In this document: positions 30,472 through 50,815 of the stretch, piece after piece
How positions within the stretch are numbered: position 1 is the stretch's first letter
How the letters are laid out: each line of letters opens with the position of its first letter
Origin: a phage
Reading direction: 5' to 3' (one strand)
Sequence record: NC_100327.1
DNA: 64,000 nt
Notes under the pieces: model-generated
The model's input: only the letters and a program-made list of their open reading frames with translations
Told to the model about the DNA's origin: nothing
The model's database searches: none
Translations under genes and position numbers: made by a program

Positions 30472-31326
30472 GTGGTATACTACAATGACAATGATAAAGA
30501 TGCAGTTGCTTGGTTGAAGAATCTAATATCTTTAGGACTACTTCCTCAAGGCGAGGTGGATGATCGTTCTATTACAGAGGTTACTGTAGAAGATCTTAGA
30601 GGTTTCACACAGTGGCACTTCTTCGCTGGCATAGGTGGATGGCCTTTGGCCTTGAAACTTGCTGGCATTCCAGAAACTTGGTCGGTATGCACAGGATCTC
30701 CGTGCTGCCAACCTTTCTCTCAAGCAGGTAAGCAACGTGGAAAATTTGACCCAAGACATCTTGCACCAACATACCTCCGGCTCGTTAAACAGCTTAAACC
30801 TGAGTTCATGTTTGGAGAGCAGGTTGCAAAAGCGATTGAATCCGGATGGCTCGACGATATGCAGAATGAAATGGAAAACGCTGGTTACAGCTTCGGGGCT
30901 TCCATACTTAATGCTGCAATCCTCAACGCCCCGCACCGCCGCGAACGACTTTACTTCGGGGCAGTTAGCAACGTGGTTAACCCCTACGGTAACTCAGGTA
31001 GGGTGCAGATCTCAGGAAGCGATGGAAAGGCGCAAGCAACAACGCTTAGCAACTGGCAGGAAGTCATTAAGTCCTGGGAATCTGTGGGAGCAGGTGAGGA
31101 TGTATTACGGGTGTGGGAGCATACAAGACAGTATCTATGCCGAGACGGAAAATGGCGTAAACTTCCTGAACCCGGCATTCCCTTGTTGGTTGATGGGCTA
31201 TCCACCCCAATGGGATTGTCTCGCCACAAAGGCTTCGGTAACGCCATAGTTCCTCAAATAGGGGCACTTTGGGTGCAAGAGTTTATGAAGTCAGTGGATG
31301 ATTGTGTGAGAGGTGAGCATGGCTAA
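30472..31326 (+). CDS. DNA (cytosine-5)-methyltransferase
   Basis: ORF track 30442..31326; GTG start just after upstream stop; motif I FFAGIGGW, motif IV GSPCCQPFSQAGK, RRERLYF, GNAI. Confidence 0.8.
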   Translation: MVYYNDNDKDAVAWLKNLISLGLLPQGEVDDRSITEVTVEDLRGFTQWHFFAGIGGWPLALKLAGIPETWSVCTGSPCCQPFSQAGKQRGKFDPRHLAPTYLRLVKQLKPEFMFGEQVAKAIESGWLDDMQNEMENAGYSFGASILNAAILNAPHRRERLYFGAVSNVVNPYGNSGRVQISGSDGKAQATTLSNWQEVIKSWESVGAGEDVLRVWEHTRQYLCRDGKWRKLPEPGIPLLVDGLSTPMGLSRHKGFGNAIVPQIGALWVQEFMKSVDDCVRGEHG

Positions 31327-31609
31327 GAAACCTGTAAAAGAGAAATTTGATAAGACAGCTTTTGTATTCGATACACCTCTGGACGACATCATTAGAGGTA
31401 TGCAATCATTGTATCGGAAGGCTGAATCTGAGCAGCTGTCGGAATCAGAACTTTACTGGCTCGGTTGGTGGGAGTTAAACCTGCCTAAAGCTGAAAGTTC
31501 TTCTCTGAGAACTGTTAAAACGTGCGCCCAAGAAAACGCTGCACTTGGAATCTACCACAAAAGGAAAAGATCAACAAAAAGCTCTCCAAGAAAGACTAAA
31601 AAGTCTTGA
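31319..31609 (+). CDS. hypothetical protein with basic tail
   Basis: ORF track 31313..31609; ATG at codon 3; C-terminal KRKRSTKSSPRKTKKS. Confidence 0.45.
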   Translation: MAKKPVKEKFDKTAFVFDTPLDDIIRGMQSLYRKAESEQLSESELYWLGWWELNLPKAESSSLRTVKTCAQENAALGIYHKRKRSTKSSPRKTKKS

Positions 31610-31635
31610 CAAAAGTGTTATTAATCTGATATTAT
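31606..31635 (+). promoter_or_regulatory. sigma70-type promoter
   Basis: TTGACA - 18 nt - TATTAT upstream of 31669 gene. Confidence 0.55.
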
Positions 31636-31668
31636 CAGTCAGATATTTATAAACTAGGAGAACTAGAC

Positions 31669-31977
31669 ATGCTTAAAATTTTTATTGTTGAAGATAAAGA
31701 TATTGTCCAGTTGTATGCAAACGAGAATCATAAAGGTATTATTCTGAAGAAGGAAAGCAACCTCTATGAAAACACAATTCAACCTGGTGATGTAATTAAG
31801 ATCTGTGGCTATCTGCTACCAGACTCATTGATGAAAATAACCCACCACTGGGGGTCTAATCCGTTCCTTTTTGAAAAGTATTGGGATGTTGAGTCACTTA
31901 TTGCAGAGAGTGATGATGCATTTCATTACAGCATCCAACCATCTTGCAGAATAACTAACAGGAGGGTCTTTGAGTAG
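31669..31977 (+). CDS. hypothetical protein
   Basis: 102 aa, ATG with AGGAG RBS, downstream of promoter. Confidence 0.55.
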   Translation: MLKIFIVEDKDIVQLYANENHKGIILKKESNLYENTIQPGDVIKICGYLLPDSLMKITHHWGSNPFLFEKYWDVESLIAESDDAFHYSIQPSCRITNRRVFE

Positions 31978-33109
31978 AGAATATCCACTTATTGAGTCCA
32001 TAGATTGTCTAGCTGATCTTCTTGAACCTGACGCTATAGTTTATTATGACTTCGATCAGGTTGCATATCAAGCTGCAGCAAGTTGTGAAAAAAGGACAAT
32101 TGAGGTAACACACAAAGCCTCCGGACGTAAGAAGATGTTTAAAACACGAACAGAGTTCTGGGGGCGGCAGAAGAACACCGTTGGTGGTTGGTTAAAAGCT
32201 GAGAATACCAACCGTGAAGCTGCATGTAAAAAGGCTGGCAAGGAGTTTATTCCGTGGACACGAGAAGATTTCGATGTCTTGGATATCCAAACCCCTGATC
32301 CTGTAGAGAACTGCTTGCACACAATTAAGTGTAAAGCTAATGCAGTCCTTAATTATCTCGGTATTCCGGAAGATCGGTGCGTGGGGGTACTTGGAGGCAC
32401 AGGTAATTTCAGACTAGATCTTCCCATGCCGGAAAGATATAAAGCCAACCGTAACAATACTCTTCGACCACTGCTGCTTGGAGATGCAAGACAGTATCTC
32501 CAAAAGCAGTATAATGCTCAAGTGATCAACGGTATCGAGGCTGACGACTGGTTAGCTATCCAGCAATTTGAAGGTTGGAACCACTACCAAAAAACAGGTA
32601 AGTTCAACAAGTTTATTATCTCTATTGATAAGGACCAAAGAACACTACCGGGGCTTGTGTTCGATCCCATGCGAAACGATAAGGGAGATTTTGTAAGGGA
32701 AACCCCTATGCTGATCGATAACGGTATGGGGAACATCTTCATGAAGCCTAATGGAGAGGTTGGCGGTTACGGGATGCTGTTCTTCGGATACCAAATGCTG
32801 TGTGGTGACTCTGCTGACAACATCAAGCCGTATCAAGGACTTATCGGTAAGGGTAAGTTCGGGGATGCCTCAGCATTCTACCTACTGTCTCAGTGCAGCA
32901 CTCCAAAGGAGATGTGGGTGGCTATTATTGATCAGTACAAGAAGTGGTTCCCGAAAGGTGTTGTTAAGTATACTGACTTCAATGGTATTGATCGTAGAAT
33001 TTCCGTAGGTCAATGGATGAGTATAATTTTTGACTGTTTGTATATGAAGCGGACATTTAATGACCAGACAAAACTTGTTAACGTTCTTAGAAATGTTGGA
33101 GCAATCTGA
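31970..33109 (+). CDS. 5'-3' exonuclease / flap endonuclease
   Basis: 379 aa; TTG start with AGGAGG RBS; H3TH-type motif CGDSADNIKPYQGLIGKGK. Confidence 0.65.
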   Translation: MSREYPLIESIDCLADLLEPDAIVYYDFDQVAYQAAASCEKRTIEVTHKASGRKKMFKTRTEFWGRQKNTVGGWLKAENTNREAACKKAGKEFIPWTREDFDVLDIQTPDPVENCLHTIKCKANAVLNYLGIPEDRCVGVLGGTGNFRLDLPMPERYKANRNNTLRPLLLGDARQYLQKQYNAQVINGIEADDWLAIQQFEGWNHYQKTGKFNKFIISIDKDQRTLPGLVFDPMRNDKGDFVRETPMLIDNGMGNIFMKPNGEVGGYGMLFFGYQMLCGDSADNIKPYQGLIGKGKFGDASAFYLLSQCSTPKEMWVAIIDQYKKWFPKGVVKYTDFNGIDRRISVGQWMSIIFDCLYMKRTFNDQTKLVNVLRNVGAI

Positions 33110-33441
33110 TGACTAAAAATGCTGTAGATAACGCAATTATGGAAGCTGTTTTTGAGGATGATCACACAACAGGGACACTTAAAACAAAAAATACATTCGT
33201 TGTTGCCACAGGTATGTGGCGGTTGTATGAAGATGACACCATTTCATACATCCTGTACACGGATGATTACGCAGATGACCGTGTATGGTCTGCTGTTTTA
33301 AAAGAGGATTGTGAGCTGATTGAGGGCGAGCGGTTATGCATGTTCACCAGTGTGGAAACAGATGTTAAGCTTTGCTCTCTCGTCTTGTTCAAAGATAAGG
33401 CTTATGCTCCTGATGAAGGAGAGGAGGACGAGGAAGCATGA
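33109..33441 (+). CDS. hypothetical acidic protein
   Basis: 110 aa, ATG overlapping upstream stop, Glu/Asp-rich C-terminus. Confidence 0.5.
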   Translation: MTKNAVDNAIMEAVFEDDHTTGTLKTKNTFVVATGMWRLYEDDTISYILYTDDYADDRVWSAVLKEDCELIEGERLCMFTSVETDVKLCSLVLFKDKAYAPDEGEEDEEA

Positions 33442-34067
33442 GAGAGCGTCTATTATCCATAGACCAGTCGTTGACACACACAGCTTGCGTTGTATGGGAC
33501 GATGGAAAGCCTGTTCATAAGGTTGTGTTACGAACTCAAAGCTCATCTGCAAAAGAGAAGAAACCAGGGACGGTTTCTTTTGCAACAGCTGCTGAGCGTA
33601 TTGACTGGATCTGCAAACAGGTCAGATATTACATCCACACGCACGGCGTTGACACCGTGGTTATGGAAGGGCTTTCCTTTGGATCACGCGGGGATGCCAC
33701 ACGCGAACTGGCTGGGTTGTTTTACGGTCTTGAAGTTATGCTTTGGGATGCTTTAGCTGATTGTGAAAATGACGGCCTGTTTAAGGTCCACACCGTGACA
33801 CCAACAACTGCCAAAAAGTTTGCTCGTAGTCATCTTCCTGAGGAACTTGCTTTTGAGGAGAAGAAAAAGCTTGACAAAAAGACAGGTAAAGAGCATACTG
33901 TGAAGAAACCTGTTACGATGGATAAAAAGTTGATGGTTAAGGCCTGCGAAGTATCTGAACCTGGGTTCCTAGATGGGATCAATTTGGTACAAGGTAAGGC
34001 CGATCTCGCAGATGCTTATTGGATAGGCAGGGCGCATCTGGAGGGGTTATCGCAAAGCGTAAAATAA
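33438..34067 (+). CDS. RuvC-like Holliday junction resolvase (RNase H fold)
   Basis: 209 aa; LSIDQSLTHTACVVWDDG N-terminus, VVMEGLSFG acidic motif, C-terminal Asp cluster. Confidence 0.5.
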   Translation: MRERLLSIDQSLTHTACVVWDDGKPVHKVVLRTQSSSAKEKKPGTVSFATAAERIDWICKQVRYYIHTHGVDTVVMEGLSFGSRGDATRELAGLFYGLEVMLWDALADCENDGLFKVHTVTPTTAKKFARSHLPEELAFEEKKKLDKKTGKEHTVKKPVTMDKKLMVKACEVSEPGFLDGINLVQGKADLADAYWIGRAHLEGLSQSVK

Positions 34068-34624
34068 GAAAGAAAGCTGTCAAAGCCCCCGTTCATAGCG
34101 GGTGGCTAAAAGATTCTAAGGACATAGCCAACTTTCGAAAAGAATTGTCAGAGGAGCAGGATGGTCTTGATCCGATCTTGTGCGAGCCACTTCGTAAGCC
34201 TTGTTTAGATCATGATCATCTGACTGGTCGTTGCAGGGGTGTTTTGTCTCAGTGCACTAATACCTTTGAGGGGTATGTGCTTAAATACTGGATGAAATAC
34301 TGTAACGAGTATACAGATTGCAGTTTATCAGAGGCGTTGCGCCGGATGGCTGACTATCTGGAGAAAGACTACAGCGACTTCCCGCTCCACAAAAACTACA
34401 GAGATGATATGACAAAGTTCTTGAGGAGATGCTCTAAAGCTACGATTATTGCACGAGCAGAATCAGATCTCAATCTTGTCATTAATCCAGAGTGCACCAA
34501 GCATGAGGCTATTGAGTCCTACATGCAGGAGTTTATAAAGAAAACTGAGGAGAGAGATTTCTATGGGGATGAAAAAGGTATTCAATCCTTGCGACTCAGT
34601 CCTGATCAGGATGAAATACCGTAA
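34019..34624 (+). CDS. Endonuclease VII-like junction-resolving enzyme
   Basis: Track ORF starts at TTG inside the RuvC-like gene; no in-frame ATG/GTG before the catalytic motif CLDHDHLTGRCRGVLSQC, so true start is uncertain. Confidence 0.55.
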   Translation: MDRQGASGGVIAKRKIRKKAVKAPVHSGWLKDSKDIANFRKELSEEQDGLDPILCEPLRKPCLDHDHLTGRCRGVLSQCTNTFEGYVLKYWMKYCNEYTDCSLSEALRRMADYLEKDYSDFPLHKNYRDDMTKFLRRCSKATIIARAESDLNLVINPECTKHEAIESYMQEFIKKTEERDFYGDEKGIQSLRLSPDQDEIP

Positions 34625-34784
34625 CTGGAAAGGTGTTGTTGCAGATCGCTGCGTTACTGAGCCTAATTTATGGTTTGGCTCTACAGAGTATCATAAAGAA
34701 GAGCAGTGGTTGATGCATGCCTTTGATGTAGACAAGGGCGAATATCGTGACTTCGCTTTAAAAGACATTCTTCAGTTTTACTAA
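34563..34784 (+). CDS. hypothetical protein
   Basis: 73 aa, ATG start, overlaps preceding gene. Confidence 0.4.
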   Translation: MGMKKVFNPCDSVLIRMKYRNWKGVVADRCVTEPNLWFGSTEYHKEEQWLMHAFDVDKGEYRDFALKDILQFY

Positions 34785-34796
34785 GGAATTTTGACG

Positions 34797-35780
34797 ATGA
34801 TGACAAAGTTAACTCTTGAGCAAATTTTAACACTAAAGCAGCAGGGATACACTAATAGACAAATTGCTCGTGAATTTTTAGGCCGTGAGTCACGTGAGAG
34901 TTGGATCCGACTACAGCTTAAACGTGCACAAGAGAATATGTCAGAGATTGTAGGAGAAGCAACGGAGCGCTTCCTTGAAGAACACAAAGGAGCTAAAGTT
35001 TGGGTGTATGATACAGAAACATCACCAACAAACGGCTGGTTCTTTGGGCACTATAAGACCAACATTCAAACCTGCGGTATTGAAATTATGCCCTATATGC
35101 TAACTTTCGCAGGTAAGTGGTTAGACAGTCCTAGTGTGGTTGACTGCGCTCTTCCCGATTACAAAATGTGGGATGAGGATATTCACAATGACCTCGAATT
35201 GATTCAGGACTTGTGGTATTATCTGGATAAATGTGATGTCGCAGTAGCCCACAATTCAGGTTTTGACTGTGGGTGGGCAAACCAACGATTTGCATTTCAC
35301 GGGTTGCCTCCAACAAGCCCATACAAAGAGGTTGACACCCTTAAAATGATCAAGAAGGCATTCCGTTTGAATGCAAACACTTTGGAGTATGCATGCAAAT
35401 ACTTCCAACTTGCCCGACAGAAACTGATTGACCACACATTTGAAATGTGGATCAAGTGTGTTCATGGTGATCTTGAGGCGTTTAAACAGATGCGGGAGTA
35501 CAATGTTGGTGATATCCTATCTCTGGAAGGCCTGTATTTGCTGGCACGCCCGTTTGCTAAGCAGCACCCCAACATGTCATTGTACTACCAGGATGAGGAG
35601 CCAAAAGTTCGTTGCCCACGCTGCGGTGGAGAACACCTTCACGAGGAAGAAGCTTTGGCGTATACTCAACTGAGTGCATTTAAAACATATCGCTGCGAAG
35701 GTTGTGGATCTGTTGTTCGTGACCGTAACAACATCCGTACCAGAGAAGAAATGAAAAACACCCTGATTCAGATAATCTAA
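34797..35780 (+). CDS. DEDD-family 3'-5' exonuclease with N-terminal HTH
   Basis: ORF track 34791..35780; ATG at codon 3 with AAGGAA RBS; Exo motifs VWVYDTETS, VAHNSGFDCG, YNVGDILSLEGLY; C-terminal CxxC...CxxC. Confidence 0.65.
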   Translation: MMTKLTLEQILTLKQQGYTNRQIAREFLGRESRESWIRLQLKRAQENMSEIVGEATERFLEEHKGAKVWVYDTETSPTNGWFFGHYKTNIQTCGIEIMPYMLTFAGKWLDSPSVVDCALPDYKMWDEDIHNDLELIQDLWYYLDKCDVAVAHNSGFDCGWANQRFAFHGLPPTSPYKEVDTLKMIKKAFRLNANTLEYACKYFQLARQKLIDHTFEMWIKCVHGDLEAFKQMREYNVGDILSLEGLYLLARPFAKQHPNMSLYYQDEEPKVRCPRCGGEHLHEEEALAYTQLSAFKTYRCEGCGSVVRDRNNIRTREEMKNTLIQII

Positions 35781-35785
35781 TCAAG

Positions 35786-35815
35786 TATAGGGAGGCTTGC
35801 GCCTCCCTTTTCCTT
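35786..35815 (+). terminator. rho-independent terminator
   Basis: GGGAGGC-ttgc-GCCTCCC hairpin followed by TTTTCCTTTT. Confidence 0.6.
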
Positions 35816-35826
35816 TTGGAGGCACT

Positions 35827-36645
35827 TTGAGCAAGAAAGAGTCCAACGACAAATATTACACAAACCCTGAGTATGCAGAATATCTTGTTGGTAAAGTAAA
35901 AGATAAGTATGGAAATTGTGCATACGTTGAGCCTTCTGCTGGAAGGGGTTCTTTTTCAAAACTATTTTCAGAGATACTGTCTTACGATCTAGTACCAGAT
36001 CCTGAATTTGAAGGACCAACACCGTGCATTCAGGCAAACTTCTTGGAGGTGCATCCCAAGGCAGATGTCTTCATAGGTAACCCACCATTTGGCAAGAATT
36101 CATCTTTAGCTTGCAAATTCTTTAACCATTGTGCATCATTGCTAGAGCTTGGAGGGGCTATAGCCTTCATCTTGCCACGGACATTTGAAAAAATATTTTT
36201 TGCAAACAAACTGGACATGTCGATGCACCTTGTCTACAGTGAAAGGTGCCCTAAGAACTCGTTTCTACTTAATGGCAAACCTTATGACGTGCCGTGTGTT
36301 TTCCAAATTTGGGAGAAAAAGGCGTGCAACAGGGATCCTGTAGAGATTGGGGAGAATAAGTTATTTTCTTTTAGCACTCCAGATGACTACGACTTCTGTG
36401 TAAGACGTGTTGGGTATAATGCTGGAAAAGTATTGGGGGAGGATGACCCAAAATCTGAAGAATCAACATATTTCATAAAATCTTTAGTTGACGGTGTTGA
36501 CAGAGTGTTTGCTGAATGCTATTCTTCTTTTCAAGAAGAAGCAGGTAAGACTGCCGGAATGAAGAGTATAGGTAAGAAAGAACTACAATACATTTTGGAG
36601 ACTAGGTATGATCAAAAGCATAGACTTGACCAAAGAACTTACTGA
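35827..36645 (+). CDS. N6-adenine DNA methyltransferase (gamma-class motif order)
   Basis: ORF track 35797..36645 begins inside the terminator; start placed at TTG after GGAGG; motif I VEPSAGRGSF precedes motif IV FIGNPPFG. Confidence 0.75.
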   Translation: MSKKESNDKYYTNPEYAEYLVGKVKDKYGNCAYVEPSAGRGSFSKLFSEILSYDLVPDPEFEGPTPCIQANFLEVHPKADVFIGNPPFGKNSSLACKFFNHCASLLELGGAIAFILPRTFEKIFFANKLDMSMHLVYSERCPKNSFLLNGKPYDVPCVFQIWEKKACNRDPVEIGENKLFSFSTPDDYDFCVRRVGYNAGKVLGEDDPKSEESTYFIKSLVDGVDRVFAECYSSFQEEAGKTAGMKSIGKKELQYILETRYDQKHRLDQRTY

Positions 36646-37066
36646 TGCAAAAGCTTTTGGTGAGACAGCGGTACAAAGGGGGCAGGCGATGGGACTGGCA
36701 CTACCTTTCGTATTAAAAGAGCACTTTACAGATTTTCAACTTATCAAGGGTGATAAGGGAATGCTTATCCTGGAGCATAAGTTGAGTAAGAAACGCTATA
36801 AAGTTGTTTTTAATTCTAAAGCTCCAACAAAACTGGGATTCAGAACTTACAATCTTAACCCATCCTACACTAAGGGTGTTGGAAGGGTAGAACAACAGCA
36901 TTTCAGTGCCAGAGCTTCTTTAGCCCCTTTGATGCTAAATTTCTCAGGGGTGGCTTTAGGATACCTTGATAAGAAAAGAGTTCTTCATGTCCGTTTCACA
37001 GACTTTGTAACGCTTCTAGCCAACAACGAGGTTGATGAAAAGGGACGTGTAAAAACAAACTTCTAA
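36608..37066 (+). CDS. hypothetical protein
   Basis: 152 aa, ATG with GGAG RBS. Confidence 0.5.
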   Translation: MIKSIDLTKELTDAKAFGETAVQRGQAMGLALPFVLKEHFTDFQLIKGDKGMLILEHKLSKKRYKVVFNSKAPTKLGFRTYNLNPSYTKGVGRVEQQHFSARASLAPLMLNFSGVALGYLDKKRVLHVRFTDFVTLLANNEVDEKGRVKTNF

Positions 37067-37093
37067 TAACGCATAGTATGATTGGAGAACGCA

Positions 37094-37285
37094 ATGACAC
37101 TAAAGTTAACAATTCCAGACAGCTTTTCAGAAGACTTTATCCCAGAAATGATGGGTAAGATGCGATCATTGCTTGATCAGATCGAGGAAGCTGTTTGGGA
37201 AGACGATGCTGTAGTGGCTAACGAGCTGGTAGATAAGTGTAAAAGTATTATTGATGCAGTTGAAGAATACCACGGAGGTTTTTGA
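37094..37285 (+). CDS. hypothetical small acidic protein
   Basis: ORF track 37082..37285; ATG at codon 5 with GGAG RBS. Confidence 0.45.
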   Translation: MTLKLTIPDSFSEDFIPEMMGKMRSLLDQIEEAVWEDDAVVANELVDKCKSIIDAVEEYHGGF

Positions 37286-38486: not shown

Positions 38487-38487
38487 A

Positions 38488-39671: not shown

Positions 39672-39672
39672 T

Positions 39673-39698: not shown

Positions 39699-39700
39699 TG

Positions 39701-39729: not shown

Positions 39730-39757
39730 AATGGCTCACTTTGTTGGTGAGCCAGAA

Positions 39758-42784: not shown

Positions 42785-42789
42785 TTTTA

Positions 42790-42812
42790 AAGGGGCTTCG
42801 GCCCCATTTTAG
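42790..42812 (+). terminator. intercistronic hairpin (attenuator/terminator) between nrdA and nrdB
   Basis: GGGGC-ttcg-GCCCC followed by ATTTT. Confidence 0.5.
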
Positions 42813-42822
42813 AGGTAGAATA

Positions 42823-43911: not shown

Positions 43912-43914
43912 TAT

Positions 43915-44193: not shown

Positions 44194-46313
44194 AAGTTGT
44201 AAAACGGGACGGTAGAGAAGAGTTCTATAACGGAATTAAGGTGATCAAGGCGGCAGAGTCCGCCTTACTTGAGTCTGGACATACTGAAGAAGAAGCTTAC
44301 CGGATCGCTTGTGCGGTTAATGAAGTTGTTGCTAACAATCTACCAACCGACCAGTGCACGATCTCTGTAAAAAATATCCATATCCTTGTTGAAGATGCTC
44401 TTATGGATATGGGTTTAAAATGTGCAGCCAGAGAATACATCCAGTATAGACAGACAAGAGATAATAACAGAGAGGCAGGTGGAAAACTGCTTGCAGATAT
44501 TAGTGGCTTCTTGGATCGAACTTGTGATGAATTTACAAAAGAAAACGCAAATAAGCCTACCAATCATGTACACACTCATCGTGACCTGCTTGCAGGCATC
44601 CTTAGCAAACACCTTGCATCAACACAGATCCTGCCAGACCGTGTCTCAGAAGAGCACAATAAAGGCTTCATCCATGTGCATGATCTTGACTACTTGATCA
44701 GTCCGTTAACAAACTGTTGTTTGGTAAATTATCCAGATATGTTGGAAAACGGATTCAACATTGGTAACGCCCATGTCAGTAAGCCGAAGTCAATAGGGGT
44801 TGCAACAACAATCCTTAGCCAAATCTCTAGTGCGGTAGCTAGTGCTCAATATGGGGGTCAGACTATGAGCCATATTGATCATTATCTGGCACAGTATGCT
44901 GAGGCGACTTATGAGAAGAACCTTAAATTTTGCCAGGAACATTGGTTGCCAGATGCTGAGACTGTTGCAATGCAGATGACAGATAAAGACGTATTTGACA
45001 GCATGCAGACTTTACTCTATCAAATCAATACGTTAACTTCTGTCAACGGGCAAACCCCATTCATCACATTAAGTTTAGGTCTGGACACCTCAGTCTTTGG
45101 TAGAATGATTACCAAAAACTACTTGAAAGTCCACAAAATGGGTCTTGGTGAAGAACGTATCACACCTGTGTTCCCTAAAGTGTTGTTCTTCCTAGAAGAG
45201 GGTGTCAACATGAACCCTGGAGATCCTAACTATGATTTGAAACGATTAGCTCTGGAATGCTCTGCAGAGCGGATTTATCCTGACTTTGTTTCTGTTCCAC
45301 TAAATCGTAAAGTGACAGGCTCGACAGATGGTAAAGTAACGAGCATGGGTTGCCGGAGTTTTCTTAGCAAATACAATGACTTGGAAACAGGCGAGGAGAA
45401 ATACCTTGGCAGATTTAACTTAGGCGTTGTTAGCCTTAATCTGCCAATGATTGCGGCAAAAGCTAAAACGGAAGGTGTTGATTTCTTTGCAGTTCTTGAC
45501 GAATACCTAGATCTTGCATACGAGGCTCACCTTGTAAGGGTTGATCGTCTAAAAGGGACAAAGGCAGGGCAGAACCCTATCATGTGGTGTGAAGGCGCTC
45601 TTGCTCGCCTGGGCCCTGAAGAGAGTATTGATAAACTCTTCTACGACGGGTACGCTTCCATCAGTATTGGGTATATTGGTGTGTATGAAACCTGTCAGAT
45701 TTTGGGCAGGGAGGGTGACAAGGCTTTAGCTCTTGGAATACTTCAGCACATGAGAGATGCTTGTGAGAGATACAAGAAGGAAAGTAGACTAGCGTTTAGC
45801 TTGTACGGCACCCCTTCTGAGAGTCTATGCTATAAAGCTGCAACCTGTCTGGATCGTGAATATCCTGAAGTGTTGAAGCACGAGCATGAATATCTCACCA
45901 ACAGTTTCCATCAGCCAGTATGGATCAATAGCTCTCCTTTTGATAAGTGGGAGTATGAGGAAGGTTTTGCTATGATCTCCTCTGGTGGCAACATCGGATA
46001 CGTAGAGACACCAAATCTGAAAAACAACTTAGATGCTTTGGAAGCTCTTGTTGATTTCGGATATAAACACATTATGTATTTTGGTATCAACCAGCCTGTG
46101 GATAAATGTCTCAAGTGTGGTTTCTCTGGTGAGTTCAGTGCAACAGCTAAAGGCTTTGTATGCCCAGAGTGTGGAAACCATGAAGAGGGAACGATCAGCG
46201 TAATTCGACGTGTGTCTGGATACCTTTCCAGTCCTAACTCTCGTCCTTACAATAAAGGTAAGCAAGCGGAAGTTATCGAGCGAGTTAAGCACTACGGAAG
46301 TTGTGGTTGCTGA
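44190..46313 (+). CDS. nrdD: anaerobic ribonucleotide reductase class III
   Basis: 707 aa; GTG start overlapping upstream stop; N-terminal ATP-cone; zinc ribbon CLKCG...CPECG; glycyl-radical motif RVSGY. Confidence 0.9.
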   Translation: MKVVKRDGREEFYNGIKVIKAAESALLESGHTEEEAYRIACAVNEVVANNLPTDQCTISVKNIHILVEDALMDMGLKCAAREYIQYRQTRDNNREAGGKLLADISGFLDRTCDEFTKENANKPTNHVHTHRDLLAGILSKHLASTQILPDRVSEEHNKGFIHVHDLDYLISPLTNCCLVNYPDMLENGFNIGNAHVSKPKSIGVATTILSQISSAVASAQYGGQTMSHIDHYLAQYAEATYEKNLKFCQEHWLPDAETVAMQMTDKDVFDSMQTLLYQINTLTSVNGQTPFITLSLGLDTSVFGRMITKNYLKVHKMGLGEERITPVFPKVLFFLEEGVNMNPGDPNYDLKRLALECSAERIYPDFVSVPLNRKVTGSTDGKVTSMGCRSFLSKYNDLETGEEKYLGRFNLGVVSLNLPMIAAKAKTEGVDFFAVLDEYLDLAYEAHLVRVDRLKGTKAGQNPIMWCEGALARLGPEESIDKLFYDGYASISIGYIGVYETCQILGREGDKALALGILQHMRDACERYKKESRLAFSLYGTPSESLCYKAATCLDREYPEVLKHEHEYLTNSFHQPVWINSSPFDKWEYEEGFAMISSGGNIGYVETPNLKNNLDALEALVDFGYKHIMYFGINQPVDKCLKCGFSGEFSATAKGFVCPECGNHEEGTISVIRRVSGYLSSPNSRPYNKGKQAEVIERVKHYGSCGC

Positions 46314-46316
46314 TAC

Positions 46317-46346
46317 TTGACAAAAGCCACAAGGATGTGGCATATT
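46317..46346 (+). promoter_or_regulatory. sigma70-type promoter with palindrome in spacer
   Basis: TTGACA - 18 nt - TGgCATATT (extended -10); spacer holds GCCACA-agga-TGTGGC. Confidence 0.45.
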
Positions 46347-46382
46347 ATTGACACACAGTGAGCTAGGAGTAGGAGGTGCAGT

Positions 46383-46499
46383 ATGTCTACAGGTATTTAT
46401 AAAATTTGCAAGTGCGGCTGTCATTGCAATCTTCGTTGGTGCAAGGCACTGGACGATTTTATTTGGCATTGCCCTGAATGCGATGCGGAGTACTTATAA
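46383..46499 (+). CDS. zinc-ribbon microprotein (38 aa)
   Basis: Found by hand (below ORF-track size cut-off); ATG with AGGAGG RBS; MSTGIYKICKCGCHCNLRWCKALDDFIWHCPECDAEYL has 7 Cys and 2 His. Confidence 0.5.
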   Translation: MSTGIYKICKCGCHCNLRWCKALDDFIWHCPECDAEYL

Positions 46500-46514
46500 G
46501 CATAAGGGGTCGAA

Positions 46515-46619
46515 ATGCGGAAATCTATCAAGAAAATCAAGATAAAATTGTTAGCACTGAAGCGTAAGTATAAAAAGTTATACGGCTTCATCAAATGGAC
46601 TTTTATAAGTTTATCTTGA
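46515..46619 (+). CDS. basic micro-ORF (34 aa), speculative
   Basis: ATG preceded by AAGGGG; Lys-rich peptide MRKSIKKIKIKLLALKRKYKK... Confidence 0.25.
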   Translation: MRKSIKKIKIKLLALKRKYKKLYGFIKWTFISLS

Positions 46620-46650
46620 ATAGAAGCACACCACAGAAGAGAGGTTCCTT

Positions 46651-46887
46651 ATGATAGGTGTCTGTGTAAAAGCTAACAGATGGTTTACATTCGGTAAGGA
46701 TTACGAAATTATCTTTCATTCGGACAGAGCCACAACAGTAGAAAGTAATGATGGGTGCTACTGGTTCGTTAGTTACCAGGGTGATGGGTATTATAGATCT
46801 ACTGATTCCAGAGGGGAAGAAGCTGTTTTCTTAGATAGAGCTTATTGTGGGCCTGAATATCCCTATCTCAAAGAGGGTAAGGCATGA
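46651..46887 (+). CDS. hypothetical protein
   Basis: 78 aa, ATG with GAGAGG RBS. Confidence 0.5.
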   Translation: MIGVCVKANRWFTFGKDYEIIFHSDRATTVESNDGCYWFVSYQGDGYYRSTDSRGEEAVFLDRAYCGPEYPYLKEGKA

Positions 46888-47357
46888 ATGTTGTCAATAT
46901 TATAGAGTGTAGCATGGTTGACGGCCCAGGTATCAGGACAACAGTGTTCTGTTCTGGTTGTCCACATCACTGCGTCGGTTGCCAAAACAAAAGTGTTTGG
47001 TCCCCCGCTAAAGGGGAACCGTTAACAAATGACACAATCGAGAGCATACTTAGCTCTATAGAACCAAACCATATTACCGGCGTTACATTATGCGGTGGAG
47101 AGCCTTTAGCACCTTACAATATTGATGGTATGTATTCAATCATTTGCGCTATCCGTGAACGCTTCGGCAACACAAAAACTATCTGGGTGTACACAGGGTA
47201 TTTGTTTGAAGAAGTCCCCGATTACATTAAAGATAGTGTTGATTACATTATGGACGGTAAGTACGAAAAAGATAACCCCACCAAAAAACCCTTTAGAGGC
47301 AGTGATAACCAAAGAATGTTTAAAAAGGTAGCAGATGGTTGGGTTCAGGTTGACTAA
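46884..47357 (+). CDS. nrdG: anaerobic ribonucleotide reductase activating protein (radical SAM)
   Basis: 157 aa; cysteine cluster CSGCPHHCVGC; adjacent to nrdD. Confidence 0.85.
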   Translation: MNVVNIIECSMVDGPGIRTTVFCSGCPHHCVGCQNKSVWSPAKGEPLTNDTIESILSSIEPNHITGVTLCGGEPLAPYNIDGMYSIICAIRERFGNTKTIWVYTGYLFEEVPDYIKDSVDYIMDGKYEKDNPTKKPFRGSDNQRMFKKVADGWVQVD

Positions 47358-47360
47358 TCG

Positions 47361-47390
47361 TTGACAAAGCTTTGTTAAGTCGGTTATAAT
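47361..47390 (+). promoter_or_regulatory. sigma70-type promoter (consensus)
   Basis: TTGACA - 18 nt - TATAAT. Confidence 0.65.
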
Positions 47391-47419
47391 TGTCGTAATG
47401 AAAGCAGAGGAGGTGCCAA

Positions 47420-47533
47420 ATGGCTAAAAAAGCCTTGAAGAAGGCGTACAAGAAAGAGATTGCGCTTGAGCTTAAGAAAAAACACAAGCGTGAAAATAAA
47501 CATCATGAAGATGAAGAGGGGGTGCAACAGTGA
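47420..47533 (+). CDS. small basic protein (37 aa)
   Basis: Found by hand; ATG with AGAGGAGG RBS 8 nt upstream; MAKKALKKAYKKEIALELKKKHKRENKHHEDEEGVQQ; stop overlaps next start (GTGA). Confidence 0.45.
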   Translation: MAKKALKKAYKKEIALELKKKHKRENKHHEDEEGVQQ

Positions 47534-47880
47534 CACAAGAACGTATCGATTTGGCTAATAAGTTTGTAGATCTCATTTTGCCACGGTTAGTTACTCAACA
47601 TGCAGATGCTATTTCTACTAATCTTGATGGCTTACGCCTAATGCTGAATCGCACAGATGACCCTCGTATTCGGGCTGATTTAGAAGCCTCTGCCAACAAA
47701 CTGGAAAAGTTCTTGCAAGTAGACACGCAAGAAGCCTTGCACAAGATTATGGTGGAAGGTTTCTCTAAAGAATTTACCATTAAAGAGCTTAAGGAGCTGA
47801 TCCACCAAGAAGAGATGAATATCCGAGTTCAGGCTGTTGCAAGCAGCATGGAAGCGGCTATTGAAAAACTGTTGCAGTAA
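47530..47880 (+). CDS. hypothetical helical protein
   Basis: 116 aa; GTG start with GAGGGGG RBS. Confidence 0.5.
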   Translation: MTQERIDLANKFVDLILPRLVTQHADAISTNLDGLRLMLNRTDDPRIRADLEASANKLEKFLQVDTQEALHKIMVEGFSKEFTIKELKELIHQEEMNIRVQAVASSMEAAIEKLLQ

Positions 47881-47918
47881 AAGTACTTGGCACATCTCAA
47901 TCTGAAAGGAGTCCCAAC

Positions 47919-48707
47919 ATGGGTCGAGCTAAAGAAACAAAACGCATGCGTGATGAAGCTAGAGAGGCTCGCAAATCTGATCGCCTGCGTAAGGCTGCTG
48001 AGAAATTTGCTGACGAAAGAGAGCACACCGCTCCAGCTCTCCGACCAATGAATAAGAAGCAGCAAAAGTATCTTGATTATCTAGGGTCACGTAAGATTAT
48101 TATTGTAAACGGTGTGTTTGGATCCGGTAAGACATTTATGGCATCTGCATATGCAGGTGATCTTCTGCGTAAGAACGAGATTGATAAGATCATTGTTGCA
48201 CGTCCTTACGTCCAGACAGGAAAGACTTCAGGATTTAAACCCGGAAATGCAATGCAGAAACTGTGGCCCTATCTTCGAAGCATGATGGACACGATTTGTC
48301 GTCGTGTTGGCAAAGGTGCTTTTACCGCAATGCTGGGAGACGGTCAGAACAGTCGTATCGAGATTTGTGAAGTTGAAAGCATTCGTGGTCGTAGTTTCGA
48401 TGAGCGATGCTTTGTCCTGATTGACGAGGCACAGCAAACTAACCCTGAAGAAATGTTGTCAATTATCACAAGGATCTCTGATCAAGCCACCCTTGTAATT
48501 ATGGGTGATAATAGCCAACGTGACATCCCTGGTAAATCTGGCCTCGCATGGGTGACGGATTTCTTTACTCGTCATCCAGATCCTGAGGTTGGAATGATTA
48601 GCTTTGATAGTCCAGACGATGTCGTTCGTTCCGGGTTGGGTCGTCAGATTGCACTCAATCTTATTGAAGATCGTGCAAATCATATTTGGACCCCTGTTTC
48701 CGAGTAA
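47919..48707 (+). CDS. phoH: PhoH-like ATPase
   Basis: 262 aa, ATG with AAGGAG RBS; Walker A GVFGSGKTF; Walker B CFVLIDEAQ. Confidence 0.85.
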   Translation: MGRAKETKRMRDEAREARKSDRLRKAAEKFADEREHTAPALRPMNKKQQKYLDYLGSRKIIIVNGVFGSGKTFMASAYAGDLLRKNEIDKIIVARPYVQTGKTSGFKPGNAMQKLWPYLRSMMDTICRRVGKGAFTAMLGDGQNSRIEICEVESIRGRSFDERCFVLIDEAQQTNPEEMLSIITRISDQATLVIMGDNSQRDIPGKSGLAWVTDFFTRHPDPEVGMISFDSPDDVVRSGLGRQIALNLIEDRANHIWTPVSE

Positions 48708-48752
48708 TACAGAAGGGTGGTTATTCCACCCTTAAAATATCTAAAACAGTTG

Positions 48753-48781
48753 TTGACAAACAGGTAAGCTTTAGATATTAT
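48753..48781 (+). promoter_or_regulatory. sigma70-type promoter
   Basis: TTGACA - 17 nt - TATTAT. Confidence 0.6.
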
Positions 48782-48811
48782 CATCGGACAAAACAAGGAG
48801 AAGGAGATAGT

Positions 48812-49123
48812 ATGGCTACAATACAAGAGAGACTGAATAAAATATACTGCCTGTTCGTCTACAACGGTGAGACAATTTTGGCAAATAAAGGATCCAAGAA
48901 TGTGTGGATCAAGGACAGTGGTGGTAATATAATCAACTTAGCGTTGCTACGTGAGCGCCGACACAGATTCTTTATCGAGTCTCGAATTATTGAAAGCAGC
49001 ACCTGCTACAGAACAGGCGATAAAGTAATTGTTGACAATGATACGTGGTATGTGGTAGACTGGCAATCATTGAGTTGTGATGCTTCTGACAATCGTAAGT
49101 ATTCCATAGTGATTGCTAAATAA
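48812..49123 (+). CDS. hypothetical protein
   Basis: ORF track 48686..49123; start moved to ATG (MATIQERL) with AAGGAGAAGGAG RBS. Confidence 0.5.
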   Translation: MATIQERLNKIYCLFVYNGETILANKGSKNVWIKDSGGNIINLALLRERRHRFFIESRIIESSTCYRTGDKVIVDNDTWYVVDWQSLSCDASDNRKYSIVIAK

Positions 49124-49183
49124 AGGTAAATGTGAATCAGGTTTAAATAAATAGCTTTCAACTTCCAATATTAAGGATTTCTC

Positions 49184-50230
49184 ATGAATTTAACACCTCG
49201 CAGCACCATGGTACACGGCATGAAAGAAAAACAGAACGGTTTCGAACCTATGAGTAATAAAATGTTTGGTATGCCGGGCGGTATCATGGAAACATACAGC
49301 TACCCAACACCTGTTGTTGACCACGTTCTTTATATCGACGATTTGGAAGACCTGCAGGATCATATGTCTCGTCTGCAGACGATCCGTATGGCTCAGCCGG
49401 AAGAAAGCATTCGGGTGATCATCAATAGCCCTGGTGGTTGCGTGCACATTGCAATGGCTTATCTACAGGCATTCCGCGAGTCTCAGGCAAGCGTTGTTGC
49501 ACATGCTGAAGGGATGTGCTGCTCTGCGGGAACAATCTTATGGCTGGGTTGTAAAGAACGCACTGTGGCTCCGGACACAGAATTTATGTTCCACTACTAT
49601 CAAGGTGGCACTTATGGTAACGGTGTGAACATGAATACTCAGGTCAGCTACTGGAAAAAACGTTTTGAACGCCTGATCGAAAAATACTACGGTGGGGTGC
49701 TGACAGAAGATGAGATCGCATCCATCACAGCTGGTGGTGAAGTGTGGTTGGACGGAGAGGAGCTGGCAGCTCGAACTGGAGCCATCATTCTGGATGAAGG
49801 TAACATACAGCGCATCCAGAACGGACAAAAACCTAAAAAGCTTCTGGCAAAAGGTGATGAAGGCGTGTTAGGTGAAGCAGGTCTTCCTGAGATTCACCAG
49901 TGCACCTCTTTAGATGAGCTAGTTCATGCTGTTGAATCTGCGAAAGCGGTTGGTTCGAAAGGTGATGTTCACACTGTGTTCCTAAATCTGCAGATGGAAA
50001 GTGGTGAGACCATTAAGATTGCCTTAGGTGAGATTACCTCAGAAGATCTGCAGCGATTCTCTGTCGTTGAACTTCAAGACATTCTGTCCCAATTGAAGAC
50101 AACCCTGAACGGCGGTGAAGAGGTTAAGGTAAAAGATAAGACTCGCAAGCGTCTGGTGGACAATATTATTAAAACAGCAAAAGAGCTCAATGAAAAAATC
50201 CTGGGTGCAGGAATTGTCGAAGAAGCTTAA
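49184..50230 (+). CDS. ClpP-like (S14-family) serine peptidase with ~150-aa C-terminal extension
   Basis: 348 aa, ATG with AAGGA RBS; INSPGG, CCSAGTILWLG (Ser) and FMFHYYQGG (His) align with ClpP catalytic regions. Confidence 0.7.
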   Translation: MNLTPRSTMVHGMKEKQNGFEPMSNKMFGMPGGIMETYSYPTPVVDHVLYIDDLEDLQDHMSRLQTIRMAQPEESIRVIINSPGGCVHIAMAYLQAFRESQASVVAHAEGMCCSAGTILWLGCKERTVAPDTEFMFHYYQGGTYGNGVNMNTQVSYWKKRFERLIEKYYGGVLTEDEIASITAGGEVWLDGEELAARTGAIILDEGNIQRIQNGQKPKKLLAKGDEGVLGEAGLPEIHQCTSLDELVHAVESAKAVGSKGDVHTVFLNLQMESGETIKIALGEITSEDLQRFSVVELQDILSQLKTTLNGGEEVKVKDKTRKRLVDNIIKTAKELNEKILGAGIVEEA

Positions 50231-50242
50231 ACATTAATTCTA

Positions 50243-50268
50243 AAGCCCTCTTCGGAGGGCTTTTATGA
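50243..50268 (+). terminator. rho-independent terminator
   Basis: AAGCCCTC-ttcg-GAGGGCTT followed by TTAT. Confidence 0.65.
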
Positions 50269-50281
50269 TCTGGAGATTTGC

Positions 50282-50815
50282 ATGACTTGTGCTAGAAAAC
50301 CTGATGAACAACGTAACGCTTACGATGAGTATGTGACACCGGAGTGGTGTGCAGAAGGGCTGTATGACCTTATTCCGTTCCCAGAAGACTGGACCTATTT
50401 AGAGCCTTGCAGGAATAGTGCCTCAGGTGTGTTCTACTCACGTATGCCGTTAGGATCTGCATGGGGAGAAATCCAAGAAGGTGTTGACTATCTGAATACA
50501 GAATACAACCATGTTGACTGTATTATCACCAACCCACCATACAGTTTGGCTCGTGAGTTTGTAGACAAGGCGTTGAAAGATGCTGACGTAGTTATTATGC
50601 TTTTGCGTCTTAATTTTCTGGAAAGCAAAGCCAGATTTGAATGGTGGCTTGATAATGCACCTACCACTGTGATCACAATATCTAAGCGTCCATCTTTTCA
50701 ATCAAATGGCAGAACTGACGGGCAAGCATATGCATATTTTGTCTGGGATAAGAAAAACCGTTTAGACTTGCCGCCATTTATGTGGTTGGCACCTCCAGAG
50801 GTAGACCTGAAATGA
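50282..50815 (+). CDS. small phage-type N6-adenine DNA methyltransferase
   Basis: 177 aa, ATG with GGAG RBS; motif IV DCIITNPPYS. Confidence 0.65.
   Translation: MTCARKPDEQRNAYDEYVTPEWCAEGLYDLIPFPEDWTYLEPCRNSASGVFYSRMPLGSAWGEIQEGVDYLNTEYNHVDCIITNPPYSLAREFVDKALKDADVVIMLLRLNFLESKARFEWWLDNAPTTVITISKRPSFQSNGRTDGQAYAYFVWDKKNRLDLPPFMWLAPPEVDLK

What the first reader, a model, noticed from the sequence alone, without database searches (positions are those of the whole stretch)
30472..50815. Three DNA methyltransferases of different classes in one early region
A C5-cytosine MTase (30472..31326; FxGxGG, PCQ, RxR, GN), a gamma-class N6-adenine MTase (35827..36645; EPSAGRGSF then NPPF) and a small phage-type N6-adenine MTase (50282..50815; NPPY) are all present, none with an adjacent restriction endonuclease. 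Orphan methyltransferases in virulent phages usually self-methylate to evade host restriction. Three distinct specificities imply exposure to multiple restriction systems.
Basis: partly seen in the sequence, partly recalled or inferred. Interest (0 to 1): 0.5.

Follow-up and report, generated by a model that had tools for sequence, protein, structure and literature searches.

The report
Orphan DNA methyltransferases of an rV5-like phage
The three genes are real stand-alone DNA methyltransferases of a known E. coli phage (99.8-99.9% identical to phage CarlMeissner across the region examined); they are already annotated, and one was shown in 2025 to methylate GATC, so the finding is largely ordinary.

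Summary
The window comes from a Vequintavirus (rV5-like virulent myovirus), 99.8-99.9% identical to Escherichia phage CarlMeissner (Bas48) across the region examined. All three ORFs exist at the stated coordinates. GenBank already annotates them as one C5-cytosine and two N6-adenine methyltransferases.

- **MTase 3 (177 aa)** is 176/177 identical to the Bas51 enzyme. That enzyme was shown in 2025 to methylate essentially every GATC in phage DNA. It is toxic when over-expressed and triggers two retrons.
- **MTase 2 (272 aa)** folds like M.TaqI/M.BseCI. It is the likelier author of a second, fully methylated motif, GTAC, but this is inferred.
- **The C5 enzyme** is an accessory gene found in 3 of about 120 Vequintavirus genomes. 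It sits directly after an HNH endonuclease gene and is under purifying selection. Its specificity is unknown.

Self-methylation is real. However, CarlMeissner remains strongly restricted by EcoRI and EcoRV, so any protection is site-specific. The genome holds five methyltransferase genes, not three. The two adenine enzymes are distant homologues with the same gamma-type motif order, not different classes.

One side observation may be new. The C5 enzyme belongs to a large phage family in which motif I lies between motifs III and IV, and this lineage has Cys-Cys-Gln instead of Pro-Cys-Gln.

The parts
30005..30469 (+). HNH (homing-type) endonuclease gene immediately upstream of the C5 methyltransferase. 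It is a neighbour, not a restriction partner.
   Evidence: phrog_5200 'HNH endonuclease', E 7.3e-72; Pfam HNH is only sub-threshold. It is annotated as a putative homing endonuclease in CarlMeissner. It is present without the methyltransferase in rV5_ev168 and Bas51.
30472..31326 (+). Accessory C5-cytosine DNA methyltransferase, 284 aa, GTG start. Motif order is II-III-I-IV...X. Motif IV is PCCQ. The target-recognition region is short and poorly modelled.
30449..31318 (.). An 870-nt segment that is present here but replaced by 13 nt in rV5_ev168. This is the extent of the methyltransferase cassette relative to most Vequintavirus genomes.
   Evidence: blastn of window 29700-31900 against L002. 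Of 120 matching records, 117 or so cover only 88% of window 30000-37000, in two pieces.
35789..35808 (+). Terminator-like GC-rich hairpin followed by a T tract, lying between the DnaQ-like exonuclease gene and methyltransferase 2.
   Evidence: Consensus scan only: 8 pairs, 6 of them G-C, loop of 4. Function was not tested.
35827..36645 (+). Core gamma-type (M.TaqI-like) amino-methyltransferase, 272 aa, TTG start. It has EPSAGRGSF (motif I), GNPPFG (motif IV) and a C-terminal target-recognition domain. It is probably an N6-adenine DNA methyltransferase and a candidate GTAC enzyme.
50282..50815 (+). Core minimal gamma-type N6-adenine DNA methyltransferase, 177 aa, with no separate recognition domain. 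It has a degenerate motif I (EPCRNSASGVF) and TNPPYS. Its GATC specificity is shown in a 99%-identical orthologue.
   Evidence: It is 176/177 identical to bas51_0176. The Bas51 escape mutations D69G, D79G and T83P fall on D69, D79 and T83 of this protein. GATC 6mA drops from 1405 to 35 in the T83P mutant. phrog_799, E 8e-67. The family profile matches M.TaqI at E 9e-6. It is present in all 118 Vequintavirus records found.

Best explanation
The three ORFs are stand-alone (orphan) DNA methyltransferases of an rV5-like virulent myovirus. They modify the phage's own replicating DNA at short specific sites.

**Shown**
- The 177-aa enzyme is a GATC-specific N6-adenine methyltransferase. It works like Dam but is not a Dam-family member. 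In the near-identical Bas51 orthologue it accounts for almost all GATC methylation of virion DNA, because host Dam does not compensate.

**Inferred**
- The 272-aa enzyme is an M.TaqI-like gamma-class adenine methyltransferase. It most likely writes the second fully methylated motif, GTAC. The alternative author is a type III Mod-like methyltransferase encoded outside the window.
- The 284-aa enzyme is an active 5-methylcytosine methyltransferase of unknown specificity. It is an accessory gene that moves between Vequintavirinae lineages. In two lineages it lies immediately downstream of an HNH endonuclease gene.
- The benefit is site-specific immunity against nucleases that cut unmethylated GATC, GTAC or the C5 target. 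It is not general anti-restriction. The costs are toxicity and recognition by methylation-sensing defences such as retrons.
For: **Identity of the phage and annotation:**

**C5 enzyme**
- The catalytic Cys79, Glu116, Arg157/Arg159 and the GN motif are invariant across 59 family members.
- dN/dS is 0.139/0.625 against an 80%-identical homologue that also carries PCCQ.
- It is present in only 3 phage records at 99% or more; the next best match is 58%.
- The homologue P0002 sits after an HNH homologue in a contig whose flanking genes are only 56-60% identical, whereas the methyltransferase is 80% identical.

**MTase 2**
- Homologous to MTase 3.

**MTase 3**
- 99% identical to bas51_0176, with published nanopore and mutant data.
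- My count of sites in the Bas51 genome gives 703 GATC (1406 adenines) and 258 GTAC (516 adenines). The reported methylated counts are 1405 and 509-511.
- GTAC methylation is unaffected by T83P.
- From my own knowledge, E. coli K-12 has no GTAC methyltransferase.
Against: - No methylome exists for a phage carrying the C5 gene, so its activity and target are unproven.
- In the C5 enzyme the Pro before the catalytic Cys is replaced. Pro occupies that position in 234 of 237 family members where the motif is recognisable.
- GTAC could equally be written by the Mod-like bas48_0070 enzyme.
- No restriction-evasion phenotype has been measured. CarlMeissner is as sensitive to EcoRI, EcoRV, EcoCFT_II and EcoPI as a relative without the C5 gene.
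- Methyltransferase-dead Bas51 mutants plaque normally on laboratory hosts.
Confidence: 0.75

Rival explanations
1. The methyltransferases mainly serve the phage's own DNA transactions rather than restriction evasion. Possible roles include preventing MutH cleavage at unmethylated GATC, marking DNA for packaging or replication as P1 Dam does, or tuning gene expression.
For: - Vequintavirinae are highly RM-sensitive despite carrying four or five methyltransferases.
- Host Dam evidently does not methylate phage DNA: only 35 of 1406 GATC adenines are methylated in the T83P mutant. The phage must therefore supply the activity if it needs methylated GATC.
- MTases 2 and 3 are strictly conserved core genes embedded among replication genes.
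Against: - The D69G, D79G and T83P mutants plaque at wild-type level without retrons, so the activity is dispensable in the laboratory.
- GTAC has no known role in E. coli DNA metabolism.
- An accessory, horizontally moving C5 gene fits an arms-race function better.
Confidence: 0.2
2. The 272-aa protein is an RNA methyltransferase (METTL5/Erm/KsgA-like) acting on rRNA or tRNA. GTAC methylation would then come from the Mod-like enzyme outside the window.
For: - JGI names some homologues 'predicted RNA methylase', and one homologue hits Pfam RrnaAD.
- No DNA-methyltransferase Pfam model reaches its threshold.
Against: - The longest alignments (230-251 of 272 residues, including the C-terminal domain) are all to DNA adenine methyltransferases: M.BseCI, MmeI, CamA and M.TaqI.
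- It is homologous to the proven DNA enzyme MTase 3.
- Three adenine methyltransferase genes match three classes of 6mA sites in Bas51 (GATC, GTAC, other).
Confidence: 0.15
3. The C5 'methyltransferase' is catalytically impaired or performs a different reaction, because of its Cys-Cys-Gln active-site motif and rearranged SAM-binding motifs.
For: - PCCQ is found only in this cluster and P0002 among 237 family members with a recognisable motif.
- The motif order is non-canonical.
- The NCBIfam dcm cutoff is not met: 55.7 against 100.65 bits.
Against: - All residues known to be catalytic in M.HhaI are kept: Cys, the Glu of ENV, RxR and GN.
- The motif rearrangement is shared by more than 3000 clusters that mostly carry the normal PCQ.
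- dN/dS is 0.22.
- There is no specific sequence similarity to 8yf3 (E 0.7).
Confidence: 0.1
4. The HNH endonuclease and the C5 methyltransferase form a functional pair. This could be a restriction-modification-like or homing cassette in which methylation protects the phage's own copy of the nuclease target.
For: - The two genes are separated by 2-3 nt in two lineages whose backbones have diverged to 56-60% protein identity.
- The high-identity DNA tract shared with L012 starts about 50 nt inside the 3' end of the HNH gene.
Against: - The same HNH gene is present without any methyltransferase in most Vequintavirus genomes, including rV5_ev168 and Bas51.
- In Seunavirus the 58% homologue of the methyltransferase sits at another locus, next to a phosphoesterase gene.
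Confidence: 0.1

Closest known systems
Bas51 (Escherichia phage WalterGehring) N6-adenine methyltransferase bas51_0176, the retron Asa1/Squ1 trigger (Nakamura et al., PLoS Biol 2025, PMC12548924)
   Same: It is 176/177 residues identical to ORF 3. It has the same neighbours, a ClpP-like protease gene upstream. The mutated residues D69, D79 and T83 are all present.
   Different: One substitution, V174A. The experiments were done on Bas51, not on this phage.
Phage and host Dam methyltransferases (E. coli Dam; T4, T2, P1 and T1 Dam)
   Same: They are orphan enzymes that write GATC N6-methyladenine on phage DNA.
   Different: ORF 3 is not a family member. Pfam Dam PF05869 scores 19.2 against a cutoff of 28.1, and TIGR01712 scores 16.1 against 97. 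It has the gamma-type order with NPPY, is only 177 aa long, and has no separate recognition domain. Its nearest solved relative by profile is M.TaqI.
M.TaqI / M.BseCI / CamA gamma-class N6-adenine DNA methyltransferases
   Different: Sequence similarity is marginal: Pfam Eco57I E 0.013, M.TaqI E 0.59 with the family profile. ORF 2 is much smaller (272 aa against 421-585 aa). Its specificity is unproven.
M.HhaI / M.HaeIII canonical C5-cytosine methyltransferases
   Different: The motif II-III segment precedes motif I. Motif IV is CCQ instead of PCQ. The variable region is about 85 residues and is modelled with low confidence.
Naturally circularly permuted C5 methyltransferases (M.BssHII, M.Alw26I, M.Esp3I, M2.BsaI)
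   Same: They show a non-canonical order of the conserved motifs.
   Different: Those enzymes are circular permutations with motifs IX-X ahead of I-VIII, and this is the only natural type catalogued in PMC5944983. Here the change is an internal transposition of motif I to between motifs III and IV.

Membership tests
C5-cytosine DNA methyltransferase (Pfam PF00145, Dcm/M.HhaI type) | Score above the curated family threshold | tested here: met
   PF00145 scores 73 bits against a cutoff of 22. The stricter NCBIfam TIGR00675 cutoff is not met: 55.7 against 100.65 bits.
C5-cytosine DNA methyltransferase (Pfam PF00145, Dcm/M.HhaI type) | Catalytic residues: Cys of motif IV, Glu of motif VI (ENV), Arg-x-Arg of motif VIII, FxGxGG of motif I, GN of motif X | tested here: met
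   C79, E116 (EQV), R157/R159, F51-G56 and G256-N257 are present, and all are invariant in 59 homologues. The Pro of the Pro-Cys dipeptide is replaced by Cys.
C5-cytosine DNA methyltransferase (Pfam PF00145, Dcm/M.HhaI type) | Canonical linear order of motifs I to X | tested here: not met
   The native sequence aligns to the profile only from position 63. Moving residues 39-68 ahead of residues 2-38 gives a contiguous alignment over profile positions 5-163 at 98.3 bits. Deletion, reversed and shuffled controls give 73.5-79.9 bits. The same test against M.HhaI gives 69.5 bits against 52.7 native.
C5-cytosine DNA methyltransferase (Pfam PF00145, Dcm/M.HhaI type) | Produces 5-methylcytosine at a defined DNA sequence | not testable with these tools
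   No methylome of CarlMeissner, pangalan or Alma was found in the literature searches.
Gamma-class N6-adenine DNA methyltransferase (M.TaqI-like, Pfam Eco57I PF07669) | Motif I (SAM loop) N-terminal to (N/D)PP(F/Y), with the recognition domain C-terminal | tested here: met
   ORF 2 has EPSAGRGSF at residues 35-43 and GNPPFG at 84-89. Its C-terminal domain superposes on the recognition domains of M.BseCI, M.TaqI and CamA. ORF 3 has EPCRNSASGVF at residues 41-51 and TNPPYS at 83-88, but no C-terminal domain.
Gamma-class N6-adenine DNA methyltransferase (M.TaqI-like, Pfam Eco57I PF07669) | Score above the curated family threshold | tested here: not met
   ORF 2 scores 16 bits against a cutoff of 25.3, and ORF 3 scores 13.3. 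The relationship is visible only by profile or structure.
Gamma-class N6-adenine DNA methyltransferase (M.TaqI-like, Pfam Eco57I PF07669) | N6-methyladenine product in DNA | tested here: inconclusive
   For ORF 3 this is shown in a 99%-identical orthologue by published nanopore data. For ORF 2 it is only inferred, from the T83P-independent GTAC methylation.
Dam family (Pfam PF05869 phage Dam; TIGR01712) | Family-level sequence membership | tested here: not met
   ORF 3 scores 19.2 bits against PF05869 (cutoff 28.1) and 16.1 against TIGR01712 (cutoff 97.05). It works like Dam but is not a member.
Type II restriction-modification system | A cognate restriction endonuclease gene adjacent to the methyltransferase gene | tested here: not met
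   The neighbours are an HNH homing-type nuclease, small ORFs of unknown function, a DnaQ-like exonuclease and a ClpP-like protease. The HNH gene occurs without the methyltransferase in relatives.

The most novel reading that the evidence does not exclude
The accessory C5 enzyme may represent an uncatalogued topological class of C5-cytosine methyltransferases. In it, the SAM-binding motif I (strand 1, glycine loop and following helix) has been transposed to between motifs III and IV, giving the order II-III-I-IV...X. This arrangement is shared by more than 3000 protein clusters of phages and prophages. In this lineage it is combined with a rare Cys-Cys-Gln catalytic motif, which could alter cofactor binding or catalysis. 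A second element of this reading is that the gene travels with an HNH homing endonuclease as a mobile cassette.
Probability: 0.3. Interest if true: 0.5.

Novelty: already known. Interest (0 to 1): 0.3.

Why it matters
As stated, the finding adds little. The genes are annotated, and one is characterised.

It is still a useful reminder that several methyltransferases in a phage do not mean broad anti-restriction. This phage family is among the most RM-sensitive coliphages, and its GATC enzyme is itself sensed by retrons.

Two questions are worth a bench test. The first is which enzyme writes GTAC, and what the accessory C5 enzyme methylates. The second is whether the rearranged motif order of this very large phage C5-methyltransferase family is a genuine new fold topology. 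That matters for methyltransferase classification and for annotation pipelines, because Pfam aligns only motifs IV-VIII of these proteins.

Tried and rejected
- **Curated families for ORFs 2 and 3.** Pfam and NCBIfam gave nothing above threshold. Some ORF 2 homologues carry a precomputed PF26055 hit, but that model is not matched in, or is absent from, the local library.
- **ORF 1 as an N-terminally truncated pseudogene.** I considered this because Pfam aligns only motifs IV-VIII. I rejected it because the arrangement is conserved in thousands of full-length proteins and the motif-swap test explains the partial alignment.
- **HNH plus methyltransferase as a restriction-modification pair.** I rejected this as the main reading because the HNH gene occurs alone in most relatives.
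- **Specificity of ORF 2 from the gene neighbourhood of bacterial homologues.** Three contexts showed no recognisable restriction enzyme. An adjacent 199-aa ORF had no Pfam or PDB match.
- **Structure searches.** A BFVD search for ORF 2 returned only unnamed or generic methyltransferases. The AFDB library was not available.
- **Literature searches.** Searches for a Vequintavirus methylome, for GTAC methylation, and for a description of the C5 motif rearrangement found only the Bas51 retron paper and the circular-permutation paper. Two papers on Druantia and O-island 172 held nothing relevant.
Full report
**What the window is.** A 7-kb stretch around the first two ORFs is 99.9% identical to Escherichia phage CarlMeissner (BASEL Bas48, Vequintavirus). 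It is also 99.8-99.9% identical to phages pangalan and Alma. Positions 40000-64000 are 99.8% identical to CarlMeissner. Window coordinates equal coordinates of the CarlMeissner locus L001 plus 19219. The phage is an rV5-like virulent myovirus. The region from about 24 kb to 62 kb is transcribed on the + strand (GC skew). It encodes DNA ligase, exonucleases, thymidylate synthase, ribonucleotide reductases, PhoH and a ClpP-like protease. That gene content fits a replication and nucleotide-metabolism module, but expression timing was not tested.

**Checking the observation.** The three ORFs are at the stated coordinates. They correspond exactly to bas48_0207 (putative C5-cytosine methyltransferase) and to bas48_0198 and bas48_0176 (both putative N6-adenine methyltransferases).

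**ORF 3 (50282-50815, 177 aa).**
- Curated families are not reached: EcoRI_methylase E 4e-4, phage Dam E 1e-3, both below cutoff. PHROG 799 'DNA methyltransferase' matches at E 8e-67.
- A profile of 26 homologues finds M.TaqI (E 9e-6), Erm rRNA methyltransferases and type I M subunits. The protein is essentially a bare Rossmann catalytic domain with a degenerate motif I (EPCRNSASGVF) and TNPPYS.
- The decisive evidence comes from the literature. Nakamura et al. (PLoS Biol 2025, PMC12548924) selected Bas51 escape mutants of retrons Asa1 and Squ1. [quoted passage not shown] The enzyme was toxic when expressed in E. coli.
- Their nanopore data (S4 table, Fig 4f) give methylated adenines in wild type as GATC 1405, GTAC 509 and other 576. 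In the T83P mutant the numbers are GATC 35, GTAC 511 and other 349.
- I identified Bas51 as phage WalterGehring, MZ501111. Its bas51_0176 is 176/177 identical to ORF 3. D69, D79 and T83 are residues of ORF 3, whereas ORF 2 has Q69, A79 and I83 at those positions.
- I counted 703 GATC sites (1406 adenines) and 258 GTAC sites (516 adenines) in the Bas51 genome. Both motifs are therefore methylated essentially to completion.
- ORF 3 is thus a GATC N6-adenine methyltransferase. It works like Dam without belonging to the Dam family. It is present in all 118 Vequintavirus records found, and at 47-66% identity in related genera, usually next to the ClpP-like protease gene.

**ORF 2 (35827-36645, 272 aa).**
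- No curated model passes: Eco57I E 0.013, and NCBIfam finds nothing. PHROG 5172 has no assigned function.
- The family has 791 hits and conserves D..YT, EPSAG.G.F, GNPPFG, FILP.TF.K, VPC.FQ.W, RRVG..AG and TAG..S.S..E.
- It is homologous to ORF 3 over the catalytic domain (hhalign probability 97%, E 5e-11).
- It is a core gene: at least 90% identical in about 120 records and 54% identical in Phapecoctavirus.

**Who writes GTAC.** The T83P-independent, about 99% complete GTAC methylation needs a phage enzyme, because E. coli K-12 has none for GTAC (my own knowledge). However, Bas51 and CarlMeissner each carry two further methyltransferase genes outside the window.
- The first is a 441-aa beta-class enzyme (PF01555, E 4e-42). 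Its closest solved relatives are type III Mod subunits: 6k0w at E 1e-28 and EcoP15I Mod at E 2e-24.
- The second is a 254-aa 'Dcm-like' protein (phrog_757).

There are thus three adenine methyltransferase genes and three classes of 6mA sites. A 4-bp palindrome fits the TaqI-like enzyme best. About 350 'other' sites fit an asymmetric 5-bp Mod-type motif. I put ORF 2 = GTAC at roughly 60-65%, and this is inference only.

**ORF 1 (30472-31326, 284 aa).**
- PF00145 is clearly met (E 3.7e-20), but the profile aligns only from motif IV to motif VIII. phmmer against M.HhaI aligns residues 36-66 to HhaI 3-33 (motif I) and residues 66-170 to HhaI 69-176. The N-terminal 35 residues (VYYNDNDKDAVAWL...DDRSITEV) look like HhaI motifs II-III.
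- I tested this directly. Moving residues 39-68 in front of residues 2-38 raises the Pfam score from 73 to 98.3 bits, with a contiguous alignment over profile positions 5-163. It raises the HhaI score from 52.7 to 69.5 bits, with a contiguous alignment over HhaI 9-176.
- Controls gave 73.5 bits when the segment was deleted, 73.7 when it was reversed, and 75.1, 73.7 and 79.9 when it was shuffled.
- The predicted secondary-structure order is strand, helix, strand, short helix, strand, helix, strand. This agrees with an order of strand 2, helix B, strand 3, strand 1, helix A, strand 4. I could not inspect model coordinates.
- The arrangement is family-wide. Fifty-nine aligned homologues share it. 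The first 83 residues alone retrieve 3214 50%-identity cluster representatives at E 1e-10 or better, almost all aligned end to end at the protein N-terminus.
- A 2018 survey states that all natural permuted C5 methyltransferases known then are circular permutations with motifs IX-X first (PMC5944983). I found no description of the order seen here, but absence from a limited library is weak evidence.
- The catalytic Cys79, Glu116, Arg157/159 and the GN motif are invariant. The Pro preceding the Cys is present in 234 of 237 members with a recognisable motif. It is Cys only in this cluster and in P0002, and Ser in P0110.

**Distribution and mobility of ORF 1.**
- Only CarlMeissner, pangalan and Alma carry it among 50,697 phage records at 99% identity or more. 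The next best match is 58%, in Seunavirus and Krischvirus phages.
- Most Vequintavirus genomes align to window 30000-37000 in two pieces covering 88%.
- Compared with rV5_ev168, window 30449-31318 (870 nt) replaces 13 nt between the 3' end of an HNH endonuclease gene and the next ORF. In both phages the upstream ORF ends in ATGGCTAA, overlapping the downstream start codon.
- An 80%-identical homologue, P0002, which also carries PCCQ, sits in the same position after an HNH homologue in metagenomic Vequintavirinae-like contigs. There the HNH protein and the downstream exonuclease are only 59.6% and 55.6% identical to those of the window. The methyltransferase DNA is 81% identical over 887 nt, starting about 50 nt inside the HNH gene.
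- dN/dS between the two methyltransferase genes is 0.139/0.625 = 0.22. That indicates a functional gene exchanged horizontally at this locus.
- In Seunavirus SalP219 the 58% homologue lies elsewhere in the module.

**Function.**
- Self-methylation is demonstrated for GATC and observed for GTAC. The anti-restriction reading is reasonable but unproven, and it must be narrow.
- Its raw data for CarlMeissner give these efficiencies of plating: EcoRI 4e-4 to 1e-3, EcoRV no plaques, EcoCFT_II 0.02-0.09, EcoPI 0.09-0.56 and EcoKI 0.5-0.9. The values are very similar for Bas49, which lacks ORF 1.
- Methylation also costs the phage, through toxicity and retron triggering.
- Within the window, GTAC is the most under-represented 4-bp palindrome (observed/expected 0.49), while GATC is at expectation (0.98).

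**Verdict.** They are already annotated, and one is experimentally characterised, so as a finding it is ordinary. The one potentially new element is the internal motif transposition, together with the Cys-Cys-Gln motif, of the accessory C5 methyltransferase family.

Noticed in passing
outside the window: CarlMeissner MZ501054 64234-65559 and 66820-67584; Bas51 L010 14456-15781 and 17042-17806: The same genome encodes two further methyltransferase genes next to the helicase and primase genes. One is a 441-aa type III Mod-like beta-class enzyme (PF01555). The other is a 254-aa 'Dcm-like' protein with FDGSGG and PPCT motifs that matches no Pfam model. The phage therefore has five methyltransferase genes, not three.
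   Followed up: partly
window 1-64000 (whole-window statistic): GTAC is the most under-represented 4-bp palindrome (98 observed, 201 expected, ratio 0.49), followed by CTAG at 0.56. GATC is at expectation (0.98). GTAC is both avoided and, in Bas51, fully methylated.
   Followed up: partly
window 30472-30720 (N-terminal 83 aa of the C5 methyltransferase): The conserved motifs run II-III-I-IV, an internal transposition rather than a circular permutation. More than 3000 protein clusters share this order. Pfam PF00145 therefore aligns only motifs IV-VIII of these proteins.
   Followed up: yes
window 30700-30711 (codons for S-P-C-C-Q): The Pro of the catalytic Pro-Cys dipeptide is replaced by Cys. 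This occurs only in this cluster and in one 80%-identical relative among 237 family members with a recognisable motif.
   Followed up: partly
GenBank records MG0656xx seen in searches with window 30000-37000, 35827-36645 and 50282-50815: About 20 records named 'Campylobacter phage' with host C. jejuni are 95-100% identical to E. coli rV5-like phages across these genes. The host label looks doubtful.
   Followed up: no
window 35789-35808 and 31606-31635: A strong terminator-like hairpin (8 pairs, 6 G-C, then a T tract) lies just upstream of methyltransferase 2. An 11/12 sigma-70-like promoter match with an extended -10 lies after ORF 31313-31609. Both are consensus matches only.
   Followed up: no
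window 34791-35780: The DnaQ-like exonuclease has a C-terminal zinc ribbon with sub-threshold hits to several zinc-ribbon families, including the Lar restriction-alleviation protein (PF14354, E 0.004).
   Followed up: no
window 31669-31977: A 102-aa ORF matches PHROG 14449, annotated 'transposase' (E 5e-69). It lies two genes downstream of the methyltransferase cassette. It and ORF 31313-31609 are absent from the related contig L012.
   Followed up: no
window about 19640-27300 (from the CarlMeissner annotation): This stretch holds a cluster of six tRNA genes, followed by polynucleotide kinase, phosphoesterase, RNA ligase and a SIR2-domain protein. It looks like an RNA-repair and counter-defence module adjacent to the methyltransferase region.
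   Followed up: no
L018 4805-5404 (Poseidonibacter ostreae contig): A bacterial homologue of methyltransferase 2 is followed, 10 nt downstream, by a 199-aa ORF with no Pfam or PDB match, and sits next to a type I M+S gene pair. The ORF could be an unrecognised restriction partner.
   Followed up: partly
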